IMG/VR virus record: IMGVR_UViG_2671181019_000008
Length of the DNA stretch: 13,647 bases
Direction: 5' to 3' (one strand)
Source: a virus
Taxonomy: Duplodnaviria > Heunggongvirae > Uroviricota > Caudoviricetes
The notes below the pieces were generated by a model. The model had not been told where the DNA came from. It was given only the letters and a program-made list of their open reading frames with translations, and made no database searches. The first letter of the stretch is position 1; each line of letters starts with the position of its first letter. Shown here piece after piece: positions 3,012-11,041 of this stretch. Both the position numbers and the translations under genes were made by a program.

Positions 3012-3091
3012 CCTGGCCTGAAGCATTAACAACGGTAGGAATTGCGATGGCGGTGGCGCTGGTGGTGTATTCGATTTGCCGCTGGGGATAA
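3008..3091 (+). CDS. Possible 27-aa hydrophobic micro-protein
   Basis: ATG 3008 overlaps the upstream stop (ATGA); translation [27 protein letters not shown] has one TM-like segment. Very short, so speculative. Confidence 0.25.
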
Positions 3092-3302
3092 AAACGGTTT
3101 GCGGGAAAAGGAGAGTTAAGTAGAATTGCAGCGGGTGCTTGAGGCTATCTGTCTCAGGCATGAACACCAAAAGGCAGATAGAGAAAAGCCCCAGTTAACA
3201 TTACGCGTCCGGCAAGACGCTTAACATTAATCTGAGGCCATATCTATGCTCTACACACGTAGGTTAGCCTCTTACGTGCCGAAAGGCAAGGAGAAGCAGG
3301 CT

Positions 3303-3458
3303 ATGAAGCAGCAAAAGGCGATGCTAATCGCCCTGATCGTCATCTGTTTAACCGTCATTGTGACGGCACTGGTAACGAGGAAAGACCTCTGCGAGGTACG
3401 AATCCGAACCGGCCAGACGGAGGTCGCTGTCTTCACAGCTTACGAACCTGAGGAGTAA
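3303..3458 (+). CDS. hokD: Hok/Gef-family type I toxin (51 aa), HokD/RelF-like
   Basis: MKQQKAMLIALIVICLTVIVTALVTRKDLCEVRIRTGQTEVAVFTAYEPEE has the Hok/Gef signature (TM helix, LTRK.LCE.R, TEVA.F.AYE) and matches E. coli HokD/RelF as I recall it. SD AAGGAGAAG upstream. Track ORF 3246-3458 is an in-frame upstream extension. Confidence 0.85.
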   Translation: MKQQKAMLIALIVICLTVIVTALVTRKDLCEVRIRTGQTEVAVFTAYEPEE

Positions 3459-3526
3459 GAGACCAGGCGAGGGAGAAATCCCTCGCCACCTCTGATGTGT
3501 CAGGCATCCTCAACGCACCCGCACTT

Positions 3527-3548
3527 AACCCGCTTCGGCGGGTTTTTT
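3527..3548 (+). terminator. Rho-independent terminator after hok; first copy of an exact 23-bp repeat
   Basis: CCCGC-TTCG-GCGGG stem-loop followed by T6. It is preceded by a perfect 9-bp stem GGCGAGGGA-gaaa-TCCCTCGCC at 3466-3487. The 23 bp TAACCCGCTTCGGCGGGTTTTTT (3526-3548) recur exactly at 5361-5383. Confidence 0.75.
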
Positions 3549-3549
3549 A

Positions 3550-3600
3550 TTGGTTGACAAAATTATGAATATGCACCAATATCTTGGTTGACAAAAGTCG
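3550..3600 (+). promoter_or_regulatory. Candidate promoter/operator of the cargo operon with tandem 13-bp direct repeats
   Basis: TTGGTTGACAAAA at 3550-3562 and again at 3584-3596 (34 bp apart); each contains a consensus -35 hexamer TTGACA. The region sits directly upstream of gene A. Confidence 0.5.
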
Positions 3601-3631
3601 TTTTTTGCACGGATTAGGCGGAGAAGTGTCT

Positions 3632-4225
3632 ATGCAGAACCATCCATTCCCTTGGGAGTTCTTTCCTGAGTTAACAGAGGAGCGTTTAACCATTATAGCT
3701 GAGGAGTTGCTCAGGATACAGGATATTACTCATGAGTTATTGTCATCGCCCTATGATGATAATTACACTCGTGGTGGTTGTACATTTGGGCGTCAGCGGC
3801 AGGCGTTGCTACAAATGTGCGTACGAAAGACATATGACTGGTTAAGACTACTTAATCCTGGCATGGATCTTACGTTTTCAATTGGGAATGTCCCTATTCG
3901 TTTCTTTACTGATGACGCAGATAACCCCAAGAAACGCGGTTTTTTCAAAAGAAATGATGCTGATCGACTCTTTGAGTCAGAGGAGACTACTCCAACTATG
4001 CATCGCTTTGTGGTTGAAAAGCCTGAATTTGAAGGCGAGGGTGGTAGAGTCATTTTTAATGGCTATAACGTGTTTGGTGAGATCGTGTCAACTTGGACAT
4101 ATGGTGCGGACCGTGTTGTTATGCTGAACTCTGTCGATGATGTACCTCCAGCACCGGTACCTATCGAACTAGAACCTATCAGTGCGTCTAAGACTGAGAA
4201 GGAAAAGAAACAAAATAGCAAATAG
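3632..4225 (+). CDS. Hypothetical protein, first gene of the cargo operon (197 aa from ATG 3632; no recognisable motif)
   Basis: Track ORF 3584-4225 begins with TTG inside the promoter repeat; ATG 3632 has SD GGAG 8 nt upstream. Appears less G+C-rich than the backbone (by eye). Confidence 0.6.
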   Translation: MQNHPFPWEFFPELTEERLTIIAEELLRIQDITHELLSSPYDDNYTRGGCTFGRQRQALLQMCVRKTYDWLRLLNPGMDLTFSIGNVPIRFFTDDADNPKKRGFFKRNDADRLFESEETTPTMHRFVVEKPEFEGEGGRVIFNGYNVFGEIVSTWTYGADRVVMLNSVDDVPPAPVPIELEPISASKTEKEKKQNSK

Positions 4226-4235
4226 TGGGTGAAAT

Positions 4236-5357
4236 GTGTTTAACGGTACTAATTTAAGACTTGCTCGTCTGTATCACGAGCTATCTCTGGAGCAGGTTGC
4301 TGAGAAGGTTGAAAAAACACGCCAGTATGTACAGCGACTGGAGTCTGGTTCAGCTACTCCATCCCCAGAGCTTATAAATAAATTAGCCGAGGTTTTGCGC
4401 GTGAAGCCCGCCTTTTTCGAAGGGCAGGAACATTCTCCTGTTAATGAAGAGATTGTACATTTTCGTAAACGCGCCTCGACAAGGATGTCAACGAAGCTAT
4501 CAACACTCGCTAAGGCTGAGTTTTATCGTCGTTTTATTGATGTATTTGAAGATAACCTTAATTTGTCACCTGTTCGATTTCCTGAATTTCGTGTCCATAC
4601 ACAAGAAGATATCGAGCGAGCGGCAGAAAAATGTCGTATTGAGTGGGGCTTAGGCTTTGGCCCAATTGAAAATATGACTCGCCTTGCCGAGAAACTTGGG
4701 GCGTTTGTTACTTCATTTGACTCCGTTTCGGATGAAGTAGATGCACTGTCTGTTCCTCTGCGAAGGCCTTTTATTGTTCGAAATACAGCTAAAAATTCAC
4801 CTTGTAGGCAACGCTTTGATATTGCTCATGAGGTTGCCCATTTGATTCTTCATGAAGGAATTTCTACTGGGGATAGATTAACTGAATCCCAGGCAAACCG
4901 TTTTGCCTCTGCTCTGTTGCTTCCCAGAACGTCGATGGCGAAATATTTTCCAAGACCTGTGGGGGGGAGGATAAATTGGCAGGGACTAAGCCAATTTAAG
5001 TTGACATGGAAAGTAAGTAAGGCTGCCATTGTTTACAGGGCTCATCAATTAGGACTTTTGACTGATGAGCAGTACAGAACTGCATTTATGGGGTTGAAAC
5101 GGAAAGGGGAAGCTATTGATGAAAAAGAAGATTATCTAATCCCTCATGAGCGTCCTGAGTTATTCCGTCGGGCTTTATCGTTTTTATTTGAAGAGTTAGG
5201 ATACGACCCACAGCGTATAGCTGATGAAATGGATATAGAAGTGGACATTTTTTATGAGTTAGTAGGAGATGATCTTCCTGCGGTTCATGAACTGCCAGGA
5301 AGTGGTGATGTTGTTTCACTACAATCTTACCGAACTCTTAGAGGCAAAATTCACTAG
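4236..5357 (+). CDS. Fusion protein: N-terminal XRE-family HTH plus C-terminal ImmA/IrrE-type (M78-like) HExxH metallopeptidase domain
   Basis: N-terminus LRLARLYHELSLEQVAEKVEKTRQYVQRLESG fits an XRE helix-turn-helix. HEVAH at nt 4827-4841, within FDIAHEVAHLILHEG, is a zinc-peptidase HExxH motif. Starts 10 nt after gene A. Confidence 0.75.
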   Translation: MFNGTNLRLARLYHELSLEQVAEKVEKTRQYVQRLESGSATPSPELINKLAEVLRVKPAFFEGQEHSPVNEEIVHFRKRASTRMSTKLSTLAKAEFYRRFIDVFEDNLNLSPVRFPEFRVHTQEDIERAAEKCRIEWGLGFGPIENMTRLAEKLGAFVTSFDSVSDEVDALSVPLRRPFIVRNTAKNSPCRQRFDIAHEVAHLILHEGISTGDRLTESQANRFASALLLPRTSMAKYFPRPVGGRINWQGLSQFKLTWKVSKAAIVYRAHQLGLLTDEQYRTAFMGLKRKGEAIDEKEDYLIPHERPELFRRALSFLFEELGYDPQRIADEMDIEVDIFYELVGDDLPAVHELPGSGDVVSLQSYRTLRGKIH

Positions 5358-5361
5358 GCAT

Positions 5362-5383
5362 AACCCGCTTCGGCGGGTTTTTT
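5362..5383 (+). terminator. Rho-independent terminator after the cargo operon; second exact copy of the 23-bp repeat
   Basis: TAACCCGCTTCGGCGGGTTTTTT at 5361-5383, 4 nt after the stop at 5357; identical to 3526-3548. Confidence 0.75.
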
Positions 5384-5458
5384 GTTTTACGTATTCTGGT
5401 TTACAATCTACAGGCCAGCCTGAACAACTGGCACCTGCTGCGCCAGCAGAGAAAGACG

Positions 5459-5737
5459 ATGGCGCACAATACCAAATCACACAATTCTGATAATTCAGCT
5501 GTCTTTGCCAGCAGGCACGGGCGGCGTTCCCGCACATTCAAATCTGATTGGTACCAGCATCCCCCATGTACTGAAGAACAAGCTGAATGGCTAATTCAGT
5601 GCTACCGCAGACACGGATACGAGATTAAGAAAGCCCTCAGCCTCGATTATCGTCACTGGATAATCTCCGTCAGGCTTCCTTACTCTGAACGCCCACCGCG
5701 TCCGTCCCGCACATTCCAGCAACGCATCTGGAGGTAA
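5459..5737 (+). CDS. Hypothetical protein (92 aa), possibly Rem-like by position
   Basis: ORF in the supplied track, immediately upstream of the DUF968 gene; the Rem assignment is by gene order only. Confidence 0.4.
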   Translation: MAHNTKSHNSDNSAVFASRHGRRSRTFKSDWYQHPPCTEEQAEWLIQCYRRHGYEIKKALSLDYRHWIISVRLPYSERPPRPSRTFQQRIWR

Positions 5738-5738
5738 C

Positions 5739-6785
5739 GTGCGGGTATTACTTCGACCTGTTCTGGTACCGGAACTCGGGCTGGTGATCGTTAAGCCGGG
5801 CCGTGAATCCATGCCGGTATTCCACAATACCCGGGTACTGGTGGAGCCGGAACCGAAAAGCATGCGTAATCTGTCGTCCGGGGTCGTTCCTGCCGTTCGC
5901 CAGCCGCTGGCGGAGGATAAATCATTACTGCCATTTTTCAGCGACGAACGAGTGAATCGTGCTGCTGGTGGCGCTGGCGCATTGTCTGACTGGTTACTGC
6001 GCCATGTTAAATCCTGCCAGTGGCCACACGGCGATTATCACCACAGTGAAACCGTCATTCACCGTTATGGTACCGGCGCAATGGTGTTGTGCTGGCACTG
6101 CGACAACCAGCTGCGCGACCAGACCTCCGAATCACTCGGGCAACTTGCTCACCAAAACCTGTCTGCATGGATGATTGACGTCATACGCCATGCAATGAAT
6201 GGCTCGCAGGAACGGGAATTATCGCTGGCTGAATTATCCTGGTGGGCGGTCCGCAATCAGGTGGCGGACGCGCTACCGGAAGCGGTATTACGTCGTTCGC
6301 TGGGGTTGCGTGCGGAAAAAATCCGCTCAATGTACCGTGAAAGCGACATCGTACCGGGAGAGCAGACCGCCACCAGCATACTGAAGCAGCGCACAAAAAA
6401 TCTTGCGCCGCTGCCTCACGCCCACCAGCAAAACCCGCCACAGGAAGAGACGGTGGTCAGCATTGCCGTTGATCCTGAGTCTCCGGAATCTTTCATGAAA
6501 CGACCTAAACGTCGCCGCTGGGTTAACGAGAAATACACACGCTGGGTGAAGACACAGCCGTGTGCGTGTTGTGGTAAGCCAGCCGACGATCCCCATCACC
6601 TGATTGGTCATGGTCAGGGCGGAATGGGGACAAAATCTCACGATATTTTCACGCTACCGCTGTGTCGGGAGCATCACAACGAGCTTCATGCGGATCCGCT
6701 GGCGTTCGAAGAAAAGCATGGTTCTCAGGTTGATTTAATTTTTCGTTTTCTTGATCACGCCTTTGCAACTGGCGTGCTTGGGTAA
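5739..6785 (+). CDS. DUF968-family protein (YdfU-like) with C-terminal Cys/His HNH-like cluster
   Basis: 348-aa ORF; GTG 5739 has SD GGAGG 4 nt upstream (alternative ATG at 5811). C-terminus CACCGKPADDPHHLIGHG...LCREHHNELH. Position upstream of rusA and Q. Confidence 0.65.
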   Translation: MRVLLRPVLVPELGLVIVKPGRESMPVFHNTRVLVEPEPKSMRNLSSGVVPAVRQPLAEDKSLLPFFSDERVNRAAGGAGALSDWLLRHVKSCQWPHGDYHHSETVIHRYGTGAMVLCWHCDNQLRDQTSESLGQLAHQNLSAWMIDVIRHAMNGSQERELSLAELSWWAVRNQVADALPEAVLRRSLGLRAEKIRSMYRESDIVPGEQTATSILKQRTKNLAPLPHAHQQNPPQEETVVSIAVDPESPESFMKRPKRRRWVNEKYTRWVKTQPCACCGKPADDPHHLIGHGQGGMGTKSHDIFTLPLCREHHNELHADPLAFEEKHGSQVDLIFRFLDHAFATGVLG

Positions 6786-6797
6786 AAGAGGTGACTG

Positions 6798-7172
6798 ATG
6801 CTCATAGATTTGGTTTTACCTTACCCGCCGACGGTGAACACTTACTGGCGACGCCGTGGCAGCACATATTTTATCTCGGAGGAGGGAAAGCGTTATCGCC
6901 GGGCTGTGGCGCTTATTGTTCGCCAGCAGCGGCTGAAATTAAGCCTGTCCGGAAGGCTGGCGATAAAGGTGATTGCAGAGCCACCGGATAAGCGTCGTCG
7001 CGACCTGGACAATATTCTGAAAGCACCACTGGATGCGCTGACGCATGCCGGACTTCTCATAGACGACGAGCAGTTTGATGAAATCAATATTGTGCGCGGT
7101 CAGCGCGTTCCTGGGGGGCGACTGGGCGTGAAGATTTACCCCATAATGCTTGAAGGGCAGGTCAAAAAATGA
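6798..7172 (+). CDS. rusA: RusA-type Holliday junction resolvase
   Basis: 124 aa; motifs TYWRRRG, RRRDLDNILKA, DAL, GGRL match the RusA family as recalled; SD AAGAGGTGA upstream. Confidence 0.85.
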   Translation: MLIDLVLPYPPTVNTYWRRRGSTYFISEEGKRYRRAVALIVRQQRLKLSLSGRLAIKVIAEPPDKRRRDLDNILKAPLDALTHAGLLIDDEQFDEINIVRGQRVPGGRLGVKIYPIMLEGQVKK

Positions 7173-7990
7173 AACTGGAAGATTTACCGAAATACTACTC
7201 CCCAAAATCCCCCGGCCTGACTGATGCATCGGCCTCAACGTCGAAAGATGCGCTGAGTATCACTGATGTGATGGCCGCGCAGGGCATGACACAGAATCGG
7301 GCTGAGATGGGGTTTTCTGCGTTCCTTGGGAAAATGGGCATCAGTATGAATGACAGGGCGCGGGCAACAGAATTACTGGCAGATTATGCACTCAGTCGGT
7401 GCGATCGTGTGGCGGCGTTGAGAAAACTTCCGGCAGAAATAAAACCGGTAGTGATGCGCATTATGGCTACGTATGCGTTTGAAGATTATGCCCGCAGTGC
7501 AGCGAGTAAAAAGCAGTGTCCTTGTTGCCGTGGGGAAAAATTTATTGAAAGCGAAGTTTTTACAAACAAGGTTCAGTATCCGGATGGTAAGCCGCCAGTA
7601 TGGGCAAAGTGCACAAAAGGCGTGTATCCGTCTTATTGGGAAGAATGGAAAAAAATCCGGGAGGTGGTGAAAGTTTCCTGTCCTGAATGTAAAGGGAAGG
7701 GAGAGATTTCCACTGCCTGTAAAGACTGCCGTGGGCGTGGTGTTGCCATTCATCGTGAAGAGTCAGAAAAACGGGGTATGCCTGTTATCAGGGACTGCCG
7801 GCGTTGTGGCGGTCGTGGCTATGAAAGACTGCCATCAACGGAGGCATTTAATGCCATACGCAAAGTGACGAGTGCTATCACGCTTGATACGTGGAAAAAA
7901 TCAGTGAAACGCTTTTACGATACGTTGGTGGTTCGGTTTGACATTGAAGAGGCATGGGCGGAGCGGCAGTTAAAGAGGGTAACGCGATAG
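7169..7990 (+). CDS. Q: Late-gene antiterminator Q-like protein (long, Cys-rich type)
   Basis: 273 aa; ATG overlaps the rusA stop (ATGA). Several CxxC pairs (CPCC, CPEC, CKDC, CRRC). Lies between rusA and the late promoter. Confidence 0.7.
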   Translation: MKLEDLPKYYSPKSPGLTDASASTSKDALSITDVMAAQGMTQNRAEMGFSAFLGKMGISMNDRARATELLADYALSRCDRVAALRKLPAEIKPVVMRIMATYAFEDYARSAASKKQCPCCRGEKFIESEVFTNKVQYPDGKPPVWAKCTKGVYPSYWEEWKKIREVVKVSCPECKGKGEISTACKDCRGRGVAIHREESEKRGMPVIRDCRRCGGRGYERLPSTEAFNAIRKVTSAITLDTWKKSVKRFYDTLVVRFDIEEAWAERQLKRVTR

Positions 7991-7995
7991 TATCG

Positions 7996-8035
7996 TTGAT
8001 TTTTCCCGAATCTGTGTTAAATTCGCCCTAACGAT
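7996..8035 (+). promoter_or_regulatory. Late promoter PR' with putative sigma-dependent pause element (qut region)
   Basis: -35 TTGATT (7996-8001), 16-bp spacer, -10 TAAATT (8018-8023), then 6 nt and AACGATGGG (8030-8038). Lambda PR' has TAAATT, 6 nt, AACGATGGG as I recall it. Confidence 0.5.
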
Positions 8036-8070
8036 GGGCGTTTTATGCCTGACGTTAGAGGAATTTTTAC

Positions 8071-8097
8071 AGCCCGCCTCCGAGTGGGCTTTTGTTG
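8071..8097 (+). terminator. tR'-like terminator ending a short PR' leader transcript
   Basis: AGCCCGC-ctccga-GTGGGCT stem (one G-U pair) followed by TTTTGTT, about 40-65 nt downstream of the inferred start. Confidence 0.45.
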
Positions 8098-8270
8098 ATC
8101 GTAAAAACAGTATGTATGGTATCTAACAATAGGTGATTCCTGCTTTGATGCAGGATGTGGATATGATACTGTATGTTTGTACACTATCAATATGATCAAA
8201 TAACCAGTAACCACTTTAAATGAATTGGTATTAAATTAGACTCTTCCCTACTTCATTTGGATAAGAGTTT

Positions 8271-9311
8271 ATGGTTTCTGAAACTGTAACGATTACGTTC
8301 TATAAAATTCAAAAATGTGGTTACTACCGTTACGGTGTTGTAAGCCCTGCATTTGGTGGTTGTGACGAGTTGCTCACAGATCTTGCTTTATGGGCAGAAG
8401 GGAAAAAACTCAAACAGACAAAGACATATGAAGCAAATGATGAGGTTTTACCTGCTTATCTTCTGGATATGAAACGTGCTGGTGACAATGTGGTTTTGTT
8501 GCTCTGGAATGAGGTTCCTTCTACAGATCAAAGTGTTCCATCGGTTCAGGAAGATACAGAATTTGGTACGGACCCAACAGTAATACTTAATTCAATCCAG
8601 AAGGGAAGTATTCCTGGTTTTGCTACTTACTTTTGGTTTATTCCATCCATGGATTTAGTGGCTAGCATCAAGTTTAACCATGCTTTGACGGGACAGAAGG
8701 CGATGCAATGCTATCTCTATCATTTTTTAAAACAGTCATCAAGCCACGTTGTGGCGGAAAGTGTGGAGAAGGAAGATGGCACGCATGAGGTGGTTATCAA
8801 GGGCTATAAAATTAACCCAACAGATGATGTGCTGCCAAAGAAAAAACACTATCCACAGTTCGTAGCTGGTTTAGTAAGAAATCCTGGTAAACATGAAGTT
8901 ATTAGGCAGAATGCTAATATTGTTTCTAAAATTGAAAAGGTTGTTGAACTTGATGTGTCAAAACCTGACGAGTTTAGCCTGTGGCAAAAACTATTGATTA
9001 ATATGAATATTAGCCATCCACAAACTGCAAATACCTCAACAAAAATTAGATATGAACTTTCTCCGAATGTTGATATTGATGACATCGAGGGGATGATTGA
9101 TGATTGGAATAAACATAGCGATACAAACTCTTGTGATTATGGTTTTGTATTTAAAGGAGATCCAACGACATATTGGCTCAGTCGTTCATTAGCACGAACC
9201 AAATTCCACTTGAATTTGGAGCGACAGGACGCCGAGTTTGTGTCCTCGGAATCTCTTCTTTCTGAACTTGTAGGCAAAAGGGAGCTCATATTACGCGAGG
9301 CGGGAATGTAG
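8271..9311 (+). CDS. Hypothetical soluble protein (346 aa), first gene of the AT-rich cargo pair
   Basis: Long ORF, clearly AT-rich by eye (first 60 nt about one-third G+C). No motif I can assign. Sits where Stx phages carry stx, between tR' and the holin. Confidence 0.65.
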   Translation: MVSETVTITFYKIQKCGYYRYGVVSPAFGGCDELLTDLALWAEGKKLKQTKTYEANDEVLPAYLLDMKRAGDNVVLLLWNEVPSTDQSVPSVQEDTEFGTDPTVILNSIQKGSIPGFATYFWFIPSMDLVASIKFNHALTGQKAMQCYLYHFLKQSSSHVVAESVEKEDGTHEVVIKGYKINPTDDVLPKKKHYPQFVAGLVRNPGKHEVIRQNANIVSKIEKVVELDVSKPDEFSLWQKLLINMNISHPQTANTSTKIRYELSPNVDIDDIEGMIDDWNKHSDTNSCDYGFVFKGDPTTYWLSRSLARTKFHLNLERQDAEFVSSESLLSELVGKRELILREAGM

Positions 9312-9821
9312 ATGAAAATCTTAGGTGGAATTTTTCTTATGGTCGTTCTGATTTTTTCTGCCTATTTTGGGAAGAATGTTCCCTTCTCATCCCAGTGGCC
9401 TCTTTATGAGGCCCTGCGAACTACAGCATCCATTATCTTTGCAGTTGTGGGAGCTTGGTTTGCGATAATCTATCCTGAACGATTAAAAAAATCATTTAGA
9501 GGTGGCAGTTCAGCGAGTGAATCTAATGGCAGTGGGATTACAAGGTTATTTACACCAATTGTACATTCTACTGCTATTTTAGCATCAGTTTTAATTATTG
9601 GCGTTGTTGCGCCATTAGTAAAACAGATACCGTTTTTTATAGATCACAAGGACATTTTTAGGGGCGCGTCATATGCCATTTTGGTTTTTTTAACTTTATG
9701 GCAACTGTTGACAGTAATTTATAGTCTCATTGGTCCTGATATGGTTAAAAGACATAACTCGTTCCAAGAGAGAGAGAAAGATGCTGCTAATTCTATATTA
9801 CCTGTCAATAAACGCAAATAA
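9312..9821 (+). CDS. Hypothetical polytopic membrane protein (169 aa, about four TM helices)
   Basis: ATG 9312 abuts the TAG of the preceding gene. Four hydrophobic segments: ILGGIFLMVVLIFSAYF, ASIIFAVVGAWFAIIY, AILASVLIIGVVAPL, ASYAILVFLTLWQLLTVIYSLI. Confidence 0.65.
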   Translation: MKILGGIFLMVVLIFSAYFGKNVPFSSQWPLYEALRTTASIIFAVVGAWFAIIYPERLKKSFRGGSSASESNGSGITRLFTPIVHSTAILASVLIIGVVAPLVKQIPFFIDHKDIFRGASYAILVFLTLWQLLTVIYSLIGPDMVKRHNSFQEREKDAANSILPVNKRK

Positions 9822-9916
9822 CATTTAAGTTAGTAAATTCGTTTCTTGAGTCGAGTCGCCATGTTGATGGTTTTTTATTTATTATAACGAATAACGGGTT
9901 CTTTTGATCATTTTAT

Positions 9917-9939
9917 CCGCCGTACTAGGCGGTTTTTTT
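9917..9939 (+). terminator. Rho-independent terminator downstream of the AT-rich pair
   Basis: CCGCC-gtacta-GGCGG followed by T7. Confidence 0.6.
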
Positions 9940-10133
9940 ATTCAGAATTTTGTTTCTTTATGGCTCGCTACGGCGGGCCTTTTTCATATCCGCGCCACGT
10001 CCGGCGTACATCGCATCAGATAACACCACACAAAAGGCATCTGCGGGTGTCTTTGACGGGGTGTTTTTTACGGGCCGCTGGTGGCCATTTTTTGTTTCCA
10101 TTACACAGCGCCCGCATCTGCGAGGTGGGGGTT

Positions 10134-10349
10134 ATGAAATCCATGGATAAGTTAACAACAGGTGTCGCCTATGGCACCTCCGCAGGCAGTGCTGGCTACT
10201 GGTTTTTACAGTTGCTCGATAGAGTCACGCCCTCACAGTGGGCAGCAATAGGTGTGCTGGGTAGTCTGGTGTTTGGCCTGTTGACGTATCTGACAAATCT
10301 TTATTTCAAGATTAAAGAAGATAAGCGTAAGGCTGCACGGGGAGAGTAA
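10134..10349 (+). CDS. S: Class II holin (pinholin), S21/EssQ-like, with dual-start motif
   Basis: [29 protein letters not shown]...[11 protein letters not shown] closely matches phage 21 S21 as recalled. M-K-S-M gives the antiholin/holin dual start. SD GAGGTGGGGG. The track ORF 9960-10349 N-terminal extension is rejected. Confidence 0.85.
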
Positions 10350-10353
10350 TTCA

Positions 10354-10698
10354 ATGACTCAAAACTATGAACTGATTGTGAAAGGGATCCGCAATTTTGA
10401 GAATAAAGTTACGGTAACTTTAGCGTTACGGGACAAAAAACGCTTTGACGGTGAAATTTTAGACCTGGACATCTCGCTGGACCGTGTTGAAGGTGCCGCG
10501 CTGGAGTTTTATGAGGCAGCAGCCAGAAGGAGCATCAGACAGGTCTTCCTGGATGTTGCTGCCGGGTTATGTGAAGGGGATGAGCAGTCGCCGGAAAAGC
10601 GCCCCGTAATTTTAGAGGCGCAGGATGTGTTGATAACCTACAGAGGAAAACTACCGGGAATAATTACGGGTTCTCTGAAGAGTCCGCCGAAATGGTAA
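10354..10698 (+). CDS. Hypothetical protein between holin and endolysin (YdfR/DUF1327-like by position)
   Basis: 114-aa ORF occupying the holin-endolysin gap, where Qin carries ydfR as I recall the gene order; family assignment is by position, not sequence. Confidence 0.5.
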   Translation: MTQNYELIVKGIRNFENKVTVTLALRDKKRFDGEILDLDISLDRVEGAALEFYEAAARRSIRQVFLDVAAGLCEGDEQSPEKRPVILEAQDVLITYRGKLPGIITGSLKSPPKW

Positions 10699-10936
10699 TT
10701 TTACCAGCATATTTTTCATCCAGTAATACAGCAAGCCGCCTGAAAGAGTCTTGTTGTTCCTGAGACCATTTGGGATTGCATGATTCAAACTGGATTGATG
10801 CCAGCGTTGATTGCATCTGTTCCCTTGGAATTGAGAATGCCAGATATGAGAAGGCGACGGTAAGGGTATTCACGTCTTCCCGAAGCCTGGAAATGCTGTC
10901 GAGCAACTCCTGTAGAGAAATGGTGTTATTGTCCAT
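10664..10936 (-). CDS. Hypothetical protein (90 aa) antisense within the lysis cassette
   Basis: Minus-strand ORF with SD GAGGA about 8 nt upstream of its ATG; its 3' end overlaps the 3' end of the + strand gene by 35 nt. Competes with + strand track ORF 10770-10976. Confidence 0.35.
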   Translation of the reverse strand: MDNNTISLQELLDSISRLREDVNTLTVAFSYLAFSIPREQMQSTLASIQFESCNPKWSQEQQDSFRRLAVLLDEKYAGKITISADSSENP

Positions 10937-11041
10937 AAATAATCCTCATGATTGTATTGACCTGTTAGCAGCCTGAGGCAACAGGCTGGAACTGATAAAC
11001 ATATCCAGGGCTCAGAAACCGATAAATCCTGATAAATATCC

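What the first reader, a model, noticed from the sequence alone, without database searches (positions are those of the whole stretch)
8271..9821. AT-rich two-gene cargo pair in the Q-to-holin moron site with RexA/RexB-like architecture
A 346-aa soluble protein is followed, with the stop abutting the next ATG, by a 169-aa four-helix membrane protein. The pair is visibly less G+C-rich than the flanking Q and lysis genes and sits between the late terminator tR' (8071-8097) and a strong terminator (9917-9939) just before the holin. That is the slot where Stx phages carry stx and where, as I recall, Qin carries cspB/cspF. A cytoplasmic protein coupled to a small polytopic membrane protein is the layout of lambda RexAB and other sensor plus membrane-effector abortive-infection pairs. 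I cannot place either protein in a known family from sequence alone.
Basis: partly seen in the sequence, partly recalled or inferred. Interest (0 to 1): 0.8.

Follow-up and report, generated by a model that had tools for sequence, protein, structure and literature searches.

The report
Rex-like two-gene prophage defence candidate
An E. coli prophage carries, between its late-gene activator and its lysis genes, a foreign two-gene cassette (a soluble protein with the fold of phage lambda's RexA plus a small four-helix membrane protein) that belongs to an already catalogued but still unproven family of candidate anti-phage systems.

Summary
ORFs 8271-9311 (346 aa) and 9312-9821 (169 aa, four TM segments) abut (TAG then ATG). 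They are low in G+C (0.38 against 0.48) and fill a variable slot (8094-10121) between the Q/tR' module and a P21-type holin of a Qin-like E. coli prophage.

Both match PADLOC's candidate system PDC-M18 (E = 5e-197 and 3e-75). PDC-M18 is 'system 4' of the P4-satellite hotspot of Rousset et al. 2022, who already noted it 'might be a distant homolog of RexAB'. They tested a P4 copy, and it is not among their validated systems.

New here: a LexA (SOS) box lies about 100 nt upstream of A in Enterobacterales and some Betaproteobacteria, and it is degenerate in this E. coli copy.

Verdict: a new member of a known kind. Defence function is plausible but unproven.

The parts
7169..7990 (+). Q-type late antiterminator gene (backbone, left flank of the cargo slot)
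   Evidence: PF03589 Antitermination protein Q, E = 2.7e-50. RefSeq 'antitermination protein' in the identical E. coli locus.
7996..8023 (+). Possible late promoter (PR'-like): TTGATT - 16 nt - TAAATT preceded by TGn
   Evidence: Read directly from the sequence. It matches 8 of 12 consensus positions, below the scan's threshold, so one search does not report it. Inferred, low confidence.
8071..8097 (+). tR'-like intrinsic terminator that closes the conserved Q module
   Evidence: 7-bp stem (5 G-C) with a T run. Backbone homology with four other E. coli prophages ends at 8093.
8094..10121 (.). Variable cargo slot between the Q/tR' module and the holin
   Evidence: blastn borders against L050-L053. 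Alternative cargo in the same slot: three tRNAs (L051), or a small ORF plus a DNA methyltransferase plus tRNAs (L050, L052, L053). G+C is 0.377.
8167..8186 (.). LexA (SOS) box-like palindrome TACTGTATGTTTGTACACTA, with one core mismatch (CAG to CAC)
   Evidence: It is the only site in the window within 5 mismatches of TACTGTATATATATACAGTA, and none occurred in simulated sequence. It aligns with perfect-core boxes in other genera.
8193..8208 (.). Second, weaker CTG-N10-CAG-like element (aTGATCAAATAACCAG)
   Evidence: Conserved columns in the seven-genus alignment, consensus CTGTTTAAATnATCAG. Function inferred.
8228..8238 (+). Conserved GTATTAAATTA, a candidate -10 element of the cassette's own promoter
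   Evidence: Near-invariant in seven genera, about 35 nt before the ATG. Cross-genus DNA homology starts at about 8164, 107 nt upstream of A. No -35 element was identified, and the simple scan found no consensus promoter here.
8271..9311 (+). Gene A: 346-aa soluble protein, PDC-M18A family, RexA/RdgC-like fold
9312..9821 (+). Gene B: 169-aa four-TM inner-membrane protein, PDC-M18B family
   Evidence: PADLOC PDLC04500 E = 3.4e-75. Four hydrophobic segments, with K and R concentrated in loop 55-82 and the C-tail. Four long helices in the model, pLDDT 67. Invariant core QWPLxEALRTTAxIIFAVxGAWxAIxYPxRL.
9917..9939 (+). Intrinsic terminator downstream of B (CCGCC-loop-GGCGG followed by T7)
   Evidence: It lies inside the variable slot, 96 nt after B's stop.
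9962..9985 (+). Second terminator-like hairpin followed by T5
   Evidence: 7-bp stem with 6 G-C pairs.
10134..10349 (+). P21-type holin (essD), first gene of the lysis cassette (right flank)
   Evidence: PF04971 E = 4.8e-35. RefSeq essD. Backbone homology resumes at 10122.

Best explanation
The pair is a self-contained, horizontally mobile two-gene cassette of the PDC-M18 family. It most likely works like lambda RexAB and the other Rex-type exclusion systems. A would be a cytoplasmic RexA/RdgC-fold protein that senses an infection-associated DNA or nucleoprotein state. B would be the four-TM inner-membrane effector that A switches on. Activated B would compromise the membrane, stop growth and abort the infection. 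Abutting or overlapping reading frames would fix the A:B ratio, which is critical in lambda and in P. putida. In this E. coli prophage the cassette sits as a moron in the Q-to-holin slot. It would be transcribed from its own conserved upstream region in the lysogen, with terminators at 9917 and 9962 shielding the lysis genes. Q-modified polymerase would also read through it late in lytic growth. In relatives the upstream region carries a LexA box, which implies SOS control. The E. coli copy has a mutated half-site, so it may have escaped that control. Shown here: family membership, fold, pair conservation, slot borders and box conservation. Inferred: sensing, A-to-B activation, membrane damage, promoter use, LexA binding and any anti-phage phenotype.
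Confidence: 0.55

Rival explanations
1. An induction-coupled module that serves the prophage's own lytic cycle rather than standing guard in the lysogen. It would be switched on by SOS (LexA cleavage) and by Q-dependent late transcription. It would then exclude superinfecting phages from an induced cell, or tune membrane energisation and lysis timing together with the adjacent holin.
For: LexA boxes lie 94-107 nt upstream of A in all Enterobacterales relatives examined, in Cupriavidus and in a Burkholderia phage. The cassette sits immediately upstream of the holin, on the late-operon strand, in E. coli, Hafnia and Pseudomonas phage Ps59. From general knowledge, not tested here: lambda rexB is also transcribed on its own late in infection, and SOS-induced small membrane toxins such as TisB and DinQ exist.
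Against: Most loci (39 of 46) lack a LexA box. Most are not next to lysis genes: only two holins occur among 150 nearest neighbours. Some lie among housekeeping genes. The E. coli copy has a damaged box. B matches no holin family.
Confidence: 0.2
2. A reversed-polarity Rex-like system, as in mycobacteriophage Butters gp30/gp31. The soluble protein A would be the toxic or antiviral effector, and the membrane protein B would only sequester or restrain it.
For: This polarity has been described for one Rex-like pair (summarised in PMC12894663). Tight translational coupling also suits a toxin-restraint pair.
Against: B is the better conserved partner in 44 of 44 loci, with an invariant intramembrane motif. 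That is more typical of an effector than of a tether. A has no recognisable catalytic or toxin domain.
Confidence: 0.1
3. Not a defence system: an RdgC-like DNA-binding protein that modulates recombination or replication of the mobile element, tethered to or partnered with a membrane protein.
Against: The cassette hops between unrelated prophages, satellites and islands as an isolated low-G+C pair. It populates the P4 defence hotspot. This is moron or defence behaviour, not that of a core replication function. The obligate 4-TM partner is unexplained.
Confidence: 0.07

Closest known systems
PADLOC candidate system PDC-M18, which is system 4 of the P4-satellite hotspot ('RexA + 4TM', plasmid pFR81) of Rousset et al. 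2022 (PMC9122126)
   Same: Both proteins match the PDC-M18A and PDC-M18B HMMs over their full length. Gene order, sizes (about 346-365 aa plus 169-175 aa) and the four TM segments in protein 2 are the same. Shared motifs include YFWFIPS..ASIKF.
   Different: The window's proteins are only 21% (A) and 25% (B) identical to the P4 representative, so this is a different subfamily: best models PDLC04496/04494 and PDLC04500. It sits in the Q-holin slot of a lambdoid prophage, not in the psu-int hotspot of a P4 satellite.
Bacteriophage lambda RexA/RexB exclusion system (Pfam PF15969 and PF15968; RexA structure 8TWQ)
   Same: A soluble protein is followed directly by a small 4-TM protein. A's model has RexA as its best structural match and RdgC next. 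B is of similar size and TM spacing to RexB. Both are carried by temperate phages. In Pseudomonas phage Ps59 a family member lies downstream of the repressor, as rexAB does.
   Different: No detectable sequence similarity. A is 67 residues longer, and only 158 residues superpose. B has no significant fold match to RexB. In the window the pair lies in the late region, not in the immunity operon. The reading frames abut, whereas lambda has a 15-nt gap.
Sucellos (SclA/SclB) of the Vibrio cholerae chromosomal integron (bioRxiv 10.1101/2024.07.02.601686)
   Same: As described by its authors: two genes, structurally like RexAB but not matched by the Pfam models, both genes required, its own promoter, a predicted pore-forming membrane partner, cell death on infection, and homologues mostly in prophages. 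This matches what is seen or inferred here.
   Different: Whether it is the same protein family could not be tested, because its sequences are not in the held text or supplements. The Vibrio and Enterovibrio members of the A family are not in integron arrays.
RexABpp (PP_5643/PP_5644) of Pseudomonas putida prophage P1 (PMC12894663)
   Different: The N- and C-termini deduced from the published primers occur in none of the 427 collected proteins or the fetched loci. The reported mutant positions do not fit a Pseudomonas B-family member. HHpred links PP_5643 to RexA at 98%, whereas this family shows no such signal. It is probably a separate lineage.
Kiwa (KwaA 4-TM plus KwaB DUF4868)
   Same: A small 4-TM protein paired with a soluble protein of about 300-350 aa, also found in the P4 hotspot.

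Membership tests
PADLOC PDC-M18 (candidate defence system) | Protein 1 matches a PDC-M18A HMM | tested here: met
   PDLC04496 E = 4.6e-197. PDLC04494 E = 1.3e-138 covering residues 1-343 of 346.
PADLOC PDC-M18 (candidate defence system) | Protein 2 matches a PDC-M18B HMM and is encoded next to protein 1 | tested here: met
   PDLC04500 E = 3.4e-75. The genes abut. The A-B adjacency holds in 46 of 47 loci.
PADLOC PDC-M18 (candidate defence system) | Anti-phage activity | not testable with these tools
   It is a candidate only. The P4 representative pFR81 is listed among the additional tested systems, not the validated ones.
Lambda RexAB (Pfam RexA PF15969 / RexB PF15968) | Soluble protein matches the RexA sequence family | tested here: not met
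   No Pfam hit at E up to 10 for A or for any of 44 family members. hhalign against RexA alone and against a 28-sequence RexA profile gives probability 0.3-0.4%. The controls behave: lambda RexA scores 1e-97 and the E. marmotae RexAB-like protein 5e-11.
Lambda RexAB (Pfam RexA PF15969 / RexB PF15968) | Soluble protein has the RexA (RdgC-like) fold | tested here: met
Lambda RexAB (Pfam RexA PF15969 / RexB PF15968) | Membrane partner matches the RexB family | tested here: not met
   No PF15968 hit. hhalign probability 0.07%. No significant BFVD match, with RexB absent from the top 50. Only the 4-TM layout and the size agree.
Lambda RexAB (Pfam RexA PF15969 / RexB PF15968) | Located in the immunity region, co-transcribed with the repressor | tested here: not met
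   In the window the pair lies between Q and the holin. A family member in phage Ps59 does lie downstream of the repressor.
Lambda RexAB (Pfam RexA PF15969 / RexB PF15968) | RexA-type DNA binding and dimerisation; RexB-dependent membrane depolarisation; exclusion of T4 rII | not testable with these tools
   Requires EMSA, SEC-MALS, membrane-potential dyes and plaque assays.
Sucellos (SclA/SclB) | Sequence or fold similarity to SclA and SclB | not testable with these tools
   The sequences could not be retrieved from the paper or its supplement.
Kiwa | KwaB DUF4868 protein downstream of the 4-TM KwaA | tested here: not met
   No DUF4868 or Kiwa HMM hit. The order is soluble gene then membrane gene.
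Holin / antiholin | B matches a holin family or always accompanies an endolysin | tested here: not met
   No holin Pfam hit for B. Only 2 of 150 nearest neighbours across 40 loci are holins.
LexA (SOS) regulon | CTGT-N8-ACAG operator in the promoter region | tested here: inconclusive
   Relatives have perfect-core boxes at a fixed distance: 7 of 46 loci against 10 of 2,403 control windows, plus Hafnia, Pectobacterium and a Burkholderia phage. The window's copy reads CTGT-N8-ACAC. Binding was not tested.

The most novel reading that the evidence does not exclude
The cassette is an SOS-gated Rex-type switch. In its ancestral form LexA keeps the sensor and membrane-effector pair silent until DNA damage, phage-induced RecA activation or prophage induction. 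Membrane shutdown would then be coupled to the SOS signal rather than to constitutive surveillance. The E. coli copy, placed behind tR' and carrying a mutated LexA half-site, would be a rewired version that is expressed differently. This would be a regulatory logic not described for Rex-like systems. It could also explain why the P4 homologue showed no protection under standard plaque-assay conditions.
Probability: 0.2. Interest if true: 0.6.

Novelty: new member of a known kind. Interest (0 to 1): 0.38.

Why it matters
Rex is the oldest known abortive-infection system, yet how RexA senses infection and opens RexB is still unresolved. Only a handful of Rex-like pairs have been studied. This family is large: 751 clusters at 50% identity for A, across Gamma- and Betaproteobacteria, temperate phages and P4 satellites. 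It has a confident RexA-like model and a very strongly conserved membrane partner, and it is still unvalidated. A positive phenotype would add a broad, tractable E. coli-borne lineage for working out Rex-type mechanisms. The conserved LexA box gives a concrete and cheap hypothesis about when such systems are expressed. For genome annotation, the two genes are currently 'hypothetical protein' in RefSeq and can be labelled PDC-M18 / Rex-like.

Tried and rejected
1. Pfam, NCBIfam and PHROGs gave no functional name.
2. A PDB sequence search with A and with the A profile found nothing.
4. hhalign of the A profile against RexA, alone and as a 28-sequence family, and of the B profile against RexB, gave no signal.
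5. I looked for a bridge to Pfam RexA through family members or the P4 system 4 protein. None hits PF15969, whereas a different P4 system (pFR86, E. marmotae) does. BLASTP of A against that pFR86 protein is not significant.
6. The exhaustive representative search returned only close relatives in its listed top 150, so it could not be used to reach RexA.
7. The B model (pLDDT 67) against BFVD gave no significant match. A 165-aa Mycobacterium phage Sbash protein is at rank 8 (E = 1.8), which is only a hint. afdb50 was not available.
8. I tested whether the validated P. putida RexABpp is the same family, using cluster names, primer-derived termini and the reported mutant positions. No match.
9. 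I tried to obtain the Sucellos sequences from the paper and its supplement. They are not held.
10. The 'Hydrolase + 3TM' system validated by Rousset et al. was considered and rejected, because its proteins are different.
11. Kiwa and holin/antiholin readings were rejected (see the membership tests).
12. The simple promoter scan found no sigma-70 consensus on the + strand between 8097 and 8271. The cassette's promoter remains undefined.
13. The Rfam scan found nothing in or near the cassette.

Full report
**1. What is there**

The window is part of a Qin-like lambdoid prophage of Escherichia coli. The 2-kb stretch 8000-10000 is 100% identical to the chromosome of E. coli O25:H16 F5505-C1 and about 30 other complete genomes. 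The gene order is hok/sok, a DUF968 gene, rusA, Q, the two genes in question, holin (essD), ydfR, lysozyme, Rz, then the small terminase subunit.

- A is 8271-9311 (346 aa) and B is 9312-9821 (169 aa), both on the + strand. A's TAG stop is followed directly by B's ATG.
- A has no hydrophobic segment.
- B has four, centred at residues 10-18, 42-50, 85-103 and 124-136. Lysine and arginine are concentrated in the loop 55-82 and in the C-terminal tail, which fits an N-in/C-in topology. The AlphaFold model of B has four long helices but only moderate confidence (pLDDT 67).

G+C is 0.396 for A and 0.373 for B. It is 0.495 for Q, 0.477 for the holin and 0.556 for the lysozyme. The insert as a whole is 0.377, against 0.481 for the rest of the window.

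**2. The slot**

Q is a PF03589 antiterminator. The true holin is 10134-10349 (PF04971, the P21 holin S family).

Four other E. coli prophages with the same Q lose homology to the window at position 8093. One of them (L051) has the same essD-ydfR-lysozyme cassette. Its homology resumes at 10122, 12 nt before the holin ATG, and it carries three tRNA genes in the gap. The other three carry a small ORF, a DNA methyltransferase and tRNAs.

The variable cargo slot is therefore 8094-10121. This Q type is present in about 2,480 of 5,426 complete E. coli genomes, and the pair is present in 33. Terminator-like hairpins with T runs follow B at 9917-9932 and 9962-9979.

**3. The proteins can be placed in a family**

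Pfam, NCBIfam and PHROGs give no function. PADLOC, however, matches both proteins to its candidate system PDC-M18:
- A: E = 4.6e-197 and 1.3e-138
- B: E = 3.4e-75

The Domainator paper equates PDC-M18 with system 4 of the P4-satellite defence hotspot of Rousset et al. 2022 (PMC11754643). [quoted passage not shown] A representative was cloned with its native promoter as pFR81, 'RexA + 4TM'. It appears in Table S2B, 'additional tested systems'. It is not in Table S2A, which holds the systems that gave robust protection against at least one of eight coliphages. I infer that it showed no robust protection in that assay.

The window's proteins are distant relatives of that representative: 21% identity over about 340 residues for A (E = 3e-13) and 25% for B (E = 3e-8).

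**4. Testing the Rex-like claim**

By sequence the claim fails:
- No member of a 44-sequence alignment of the A family touches Pfam RexA, even at E = 10.
- hhalign of the A profile against lambda RexA gives 0.3% probability. Against a 28-sequence RexA family profile it gives 0.4%.
- The B profile against RexB gives 0.07%.
- The controls behave as expected.

The match has limits. Fewer than half of A's residues superpose, and Foldseek does not recover RexA at all. For B, nothing beyond size and four-TM layout links it to RexB, and the BFVD fold search found no significant match.

**5. The family**

A has 70 clusters at 90% identity and 751 representatives at 50% identity. B has at least 355 clusters. 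Members occur in Enterobacterales, Vibrionaceae, Pasteurellaceae, Pseudomonas, Halomonas, Burkholderiales, Chromobacterium and other groups.

In 47 species-representative loci found with the B profile:
- An A-family gene lies immediately upstream on the same strand in 46. The exception is cut by a contig end.
- The frames overlap by 4 nt in 26 loci, and abut or nearly abut in most of the others.
- B is better conserved than A in 44 of 44 comparable loci, with median identity to the window of 49.7% against 34.3%.
- B carries an almost invariant core, QWPLxEALRTTAxIIFAVxGAWxAIxYPxRL.

A fast-evolving soluble partner with a constrained membrane partner is what a sensor-effector pair would show.

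The neighbours have nothing in common except mobility and defence. They include integrases, S24 repressors, holins, tail proteins, type I R-M, Septu, BstA and other PADLOC candidates, but also housekeeping genes. Specific cases:
- An Enterovibrio copy lies beside AAA_15/AAA_21 ATPases, Arc and Bro/ANT genes.
- In Hafnia paralvei the pair occupies the same Q-to-holin slot of a prophage with a different Q family (PF06323).
- In Pectobacterium it follows a primase/DUF927 gene.
- In Pseudomonas phage Ps59 the order is repressor, two small genes, A, B, holin, endolysin. This recalls lambda's cI-rexA-rexB and the published layout of P. putida RexABpp.
- Burkholderia phage phiBt-TXDOH carries the pair next to attP.

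**6. A regulatory feature that emerged: LexA boxes**

DNA homology between the window and the Edwardsiella and Citrobacter cassettes starts at about 8164, 107 nt upstream of A's ATG. It ends at B's stop codon. The cassette therefore travels with its own leader.

Aligning this leader from seven genera shows a conserved palindrome, TACTGTATATTTATACAGT. This is the CTGT-N8-ACAG LexA operator of Gamma- and Betaproteobacteria. A second CTG-N10-CAG-like element and a near-invariant GTATTAAATTA about 35 nt before the ATG follow it.

- A perfect-core box lies 94-107 nt upstream of A in 7 of 46 loci: all six Enterobacterales and one Cupriavidus. The background is 10 of 2,403 control windows in the same loci.
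- Hafnia, Pectobacterium and Burkholderia phage phiBt-TXDOH also have one.
- Pseudomonas and most other lineages do not.
- The window's copy (8167-8186, TACTGTATGTTTGTACACTA) is the only site in the window within five mismatches of the 20-nt consensus, and none were seen in simulated sequence. Its second half-site reads CAC instead of CAG.

Whether LexA still binds it is untested. No -35 element could be assigned, and the simple promoter scan reports nothing on the + strand upstream of A.

**7. How it most likely works**

Putting this together, the best-supported reading (confidence about 0.55) is a Rex-type two-component exclusion cassette.
- A is a cytoplasmic RexA/RdgC-fold protein that senses an infection-linked DNA or nucleoprotein state.
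- B is the membrane effector, whose activation arrests growth.
- Translational coupling fixes the A:B ratio, which is critical in lambda and in P. putida.
- In this prophage the pair would be expressed from its own leader in the lysogen. The terminators at 9917 and 9962 would keep that transcription out of the lysis genes. Q-modified polymerase would read through the cassette late in lytic growth.

What is shown here is family membership, fold, pair conservation, the conservation asymmetry, slot borders and the conserved box. All biochemical steps are inferred from lambda RexAB, RexABpp (B-dependent toxicity of excess A, dye uptake) and Sucellos (both genes needed, cell death on infection).

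The main rival (about 0.2) is that the cassette serves the prophage's own induction, with SOS and Q control next to the holin. A Butters-type reversed polarity (about 0.1) and a non-defence RdgC-like role (about 0.07) are less likely.

**8. Relation to validated Rex-like systems**

Sucellos from the Vibrio cholerae chromosomal integron is described in terms that fit this family closely. It is RexAB-like by structure and not matched by Pfam. It has two genes and its own promoter, and its homologues are mostly in prophages. I could not obtain its sequences, so membership is untested.

For RexABpp, the termini deduced from the published primers occur in none of the collected family members. The reported mutant positions also do not fit a Pseudomonas B-family protein. 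It is probably a separate lineage.

**9. Verdict**

Defence is unproven, no sequence link to Rex exists, and the idea is not new.

The pair is a new, divergent member of a catalogued candidate family, sitting in a slot not reported for it in the papers I found. I did not find the LexA-box association described in those papers either, and it is directly testable. I score interest at about 0.4.

Noticed in passing
window 3584-5357 (+): A second low-G+C two-gene cargo between hok/sok and the DUF968 gene is a RosmerTA defence system: RmrT (3584-4225, PADLOC E = 7e-93) and RmrA (4236-5357, E = 4e-201; HTH_3 plus Peptidase_M78/IrrE domains). It is absent from the otherwise identical F5505-C1 prophage, where hokD and DUF968 are only about 0.44 kb apart. 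The window's prophage is therefore a different mosaic upstream.
   Followed up: partly
window 3133-3458 (+): A hok/sok type I toxin-antitoxin locus. Rfam sok matches at 3133-3308 (117 bits). The 70-aa ORF at 3246-3458 contains the Hok-like hydrophobic peptide; RefSeq calls hokD in related prophages.
   Followed up: partly
window 8167-8186; L003, L004, L005, L006, L007, L010, L034, L054, L055, L056, L059 upstream of gene A: A LexA (SOS) box with a perfect CTGT-N8-ACAG core lies 94-107 nt upstream of gene A in Enterobacterales, a Cupriavidus and a Burkholderia phage. It is absent from Pseudomonas and most other lineages. The E. coli copy has a CAG-to-CAC change. I did not find this reported for PDC-M18 or Rex-like systems in the papers I read.
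   Followed up: yes
L058 (Pseudomonas phage Ps59) 3401-7770: In this transposable Pseudomonas phage the A-B homologues (gp20, gp21) lie on the repressor strand, two genes downstream of the repressor and directly upstream of the holin and endolysin. The layout combines the lambda cI-rexAB position with the pre-holin position seen in E. coli. This variant is common in P. aeruginosa: cluster members are seen on 593 and 426 contigs.
   Followed up: partly
L061 (Enterovibrio baiacu) 3032-10958: A distant A-B pair (388 aa plus 171 aa) lies between two AAA_15/AAA_21 ATPase genes and next to Arc and Bro-N/ANT genes. This looks like a defence island or prophage remnant.
   Followed up: no
BFVD hit A0A0A7RXT6 (Mycobacterium phage Sbash, 165 aa): The B model's eighth-ranked, non-significant BFVD match (E = 1.8, TM 0.42) is an uncharacterised Sbash protein. 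Sbash encodes a published Rex-like pair (gp30/gp31). I could not check whether this protein is gp31.
   Followed up: no
window 7996-8023 (+): TTGATT - 16 nt - TAAATT preceded by TGn, just after the Q stop codon and before the 8024-8040 and 8071-8090 hairpins, looks like a PR'-type late promoter with a short terminated leader. It is below the scan's threshold (8 of 12).
   Followed up: no
PADLOC model PDLC04496: The best-scoring PDC-M18A model is only 271 positions long and matches residues 76-346 of A. It was probably built from N-terminally truncated gene calls. The full-length model PDLC04494 covers 1-343.
   Followed up: no
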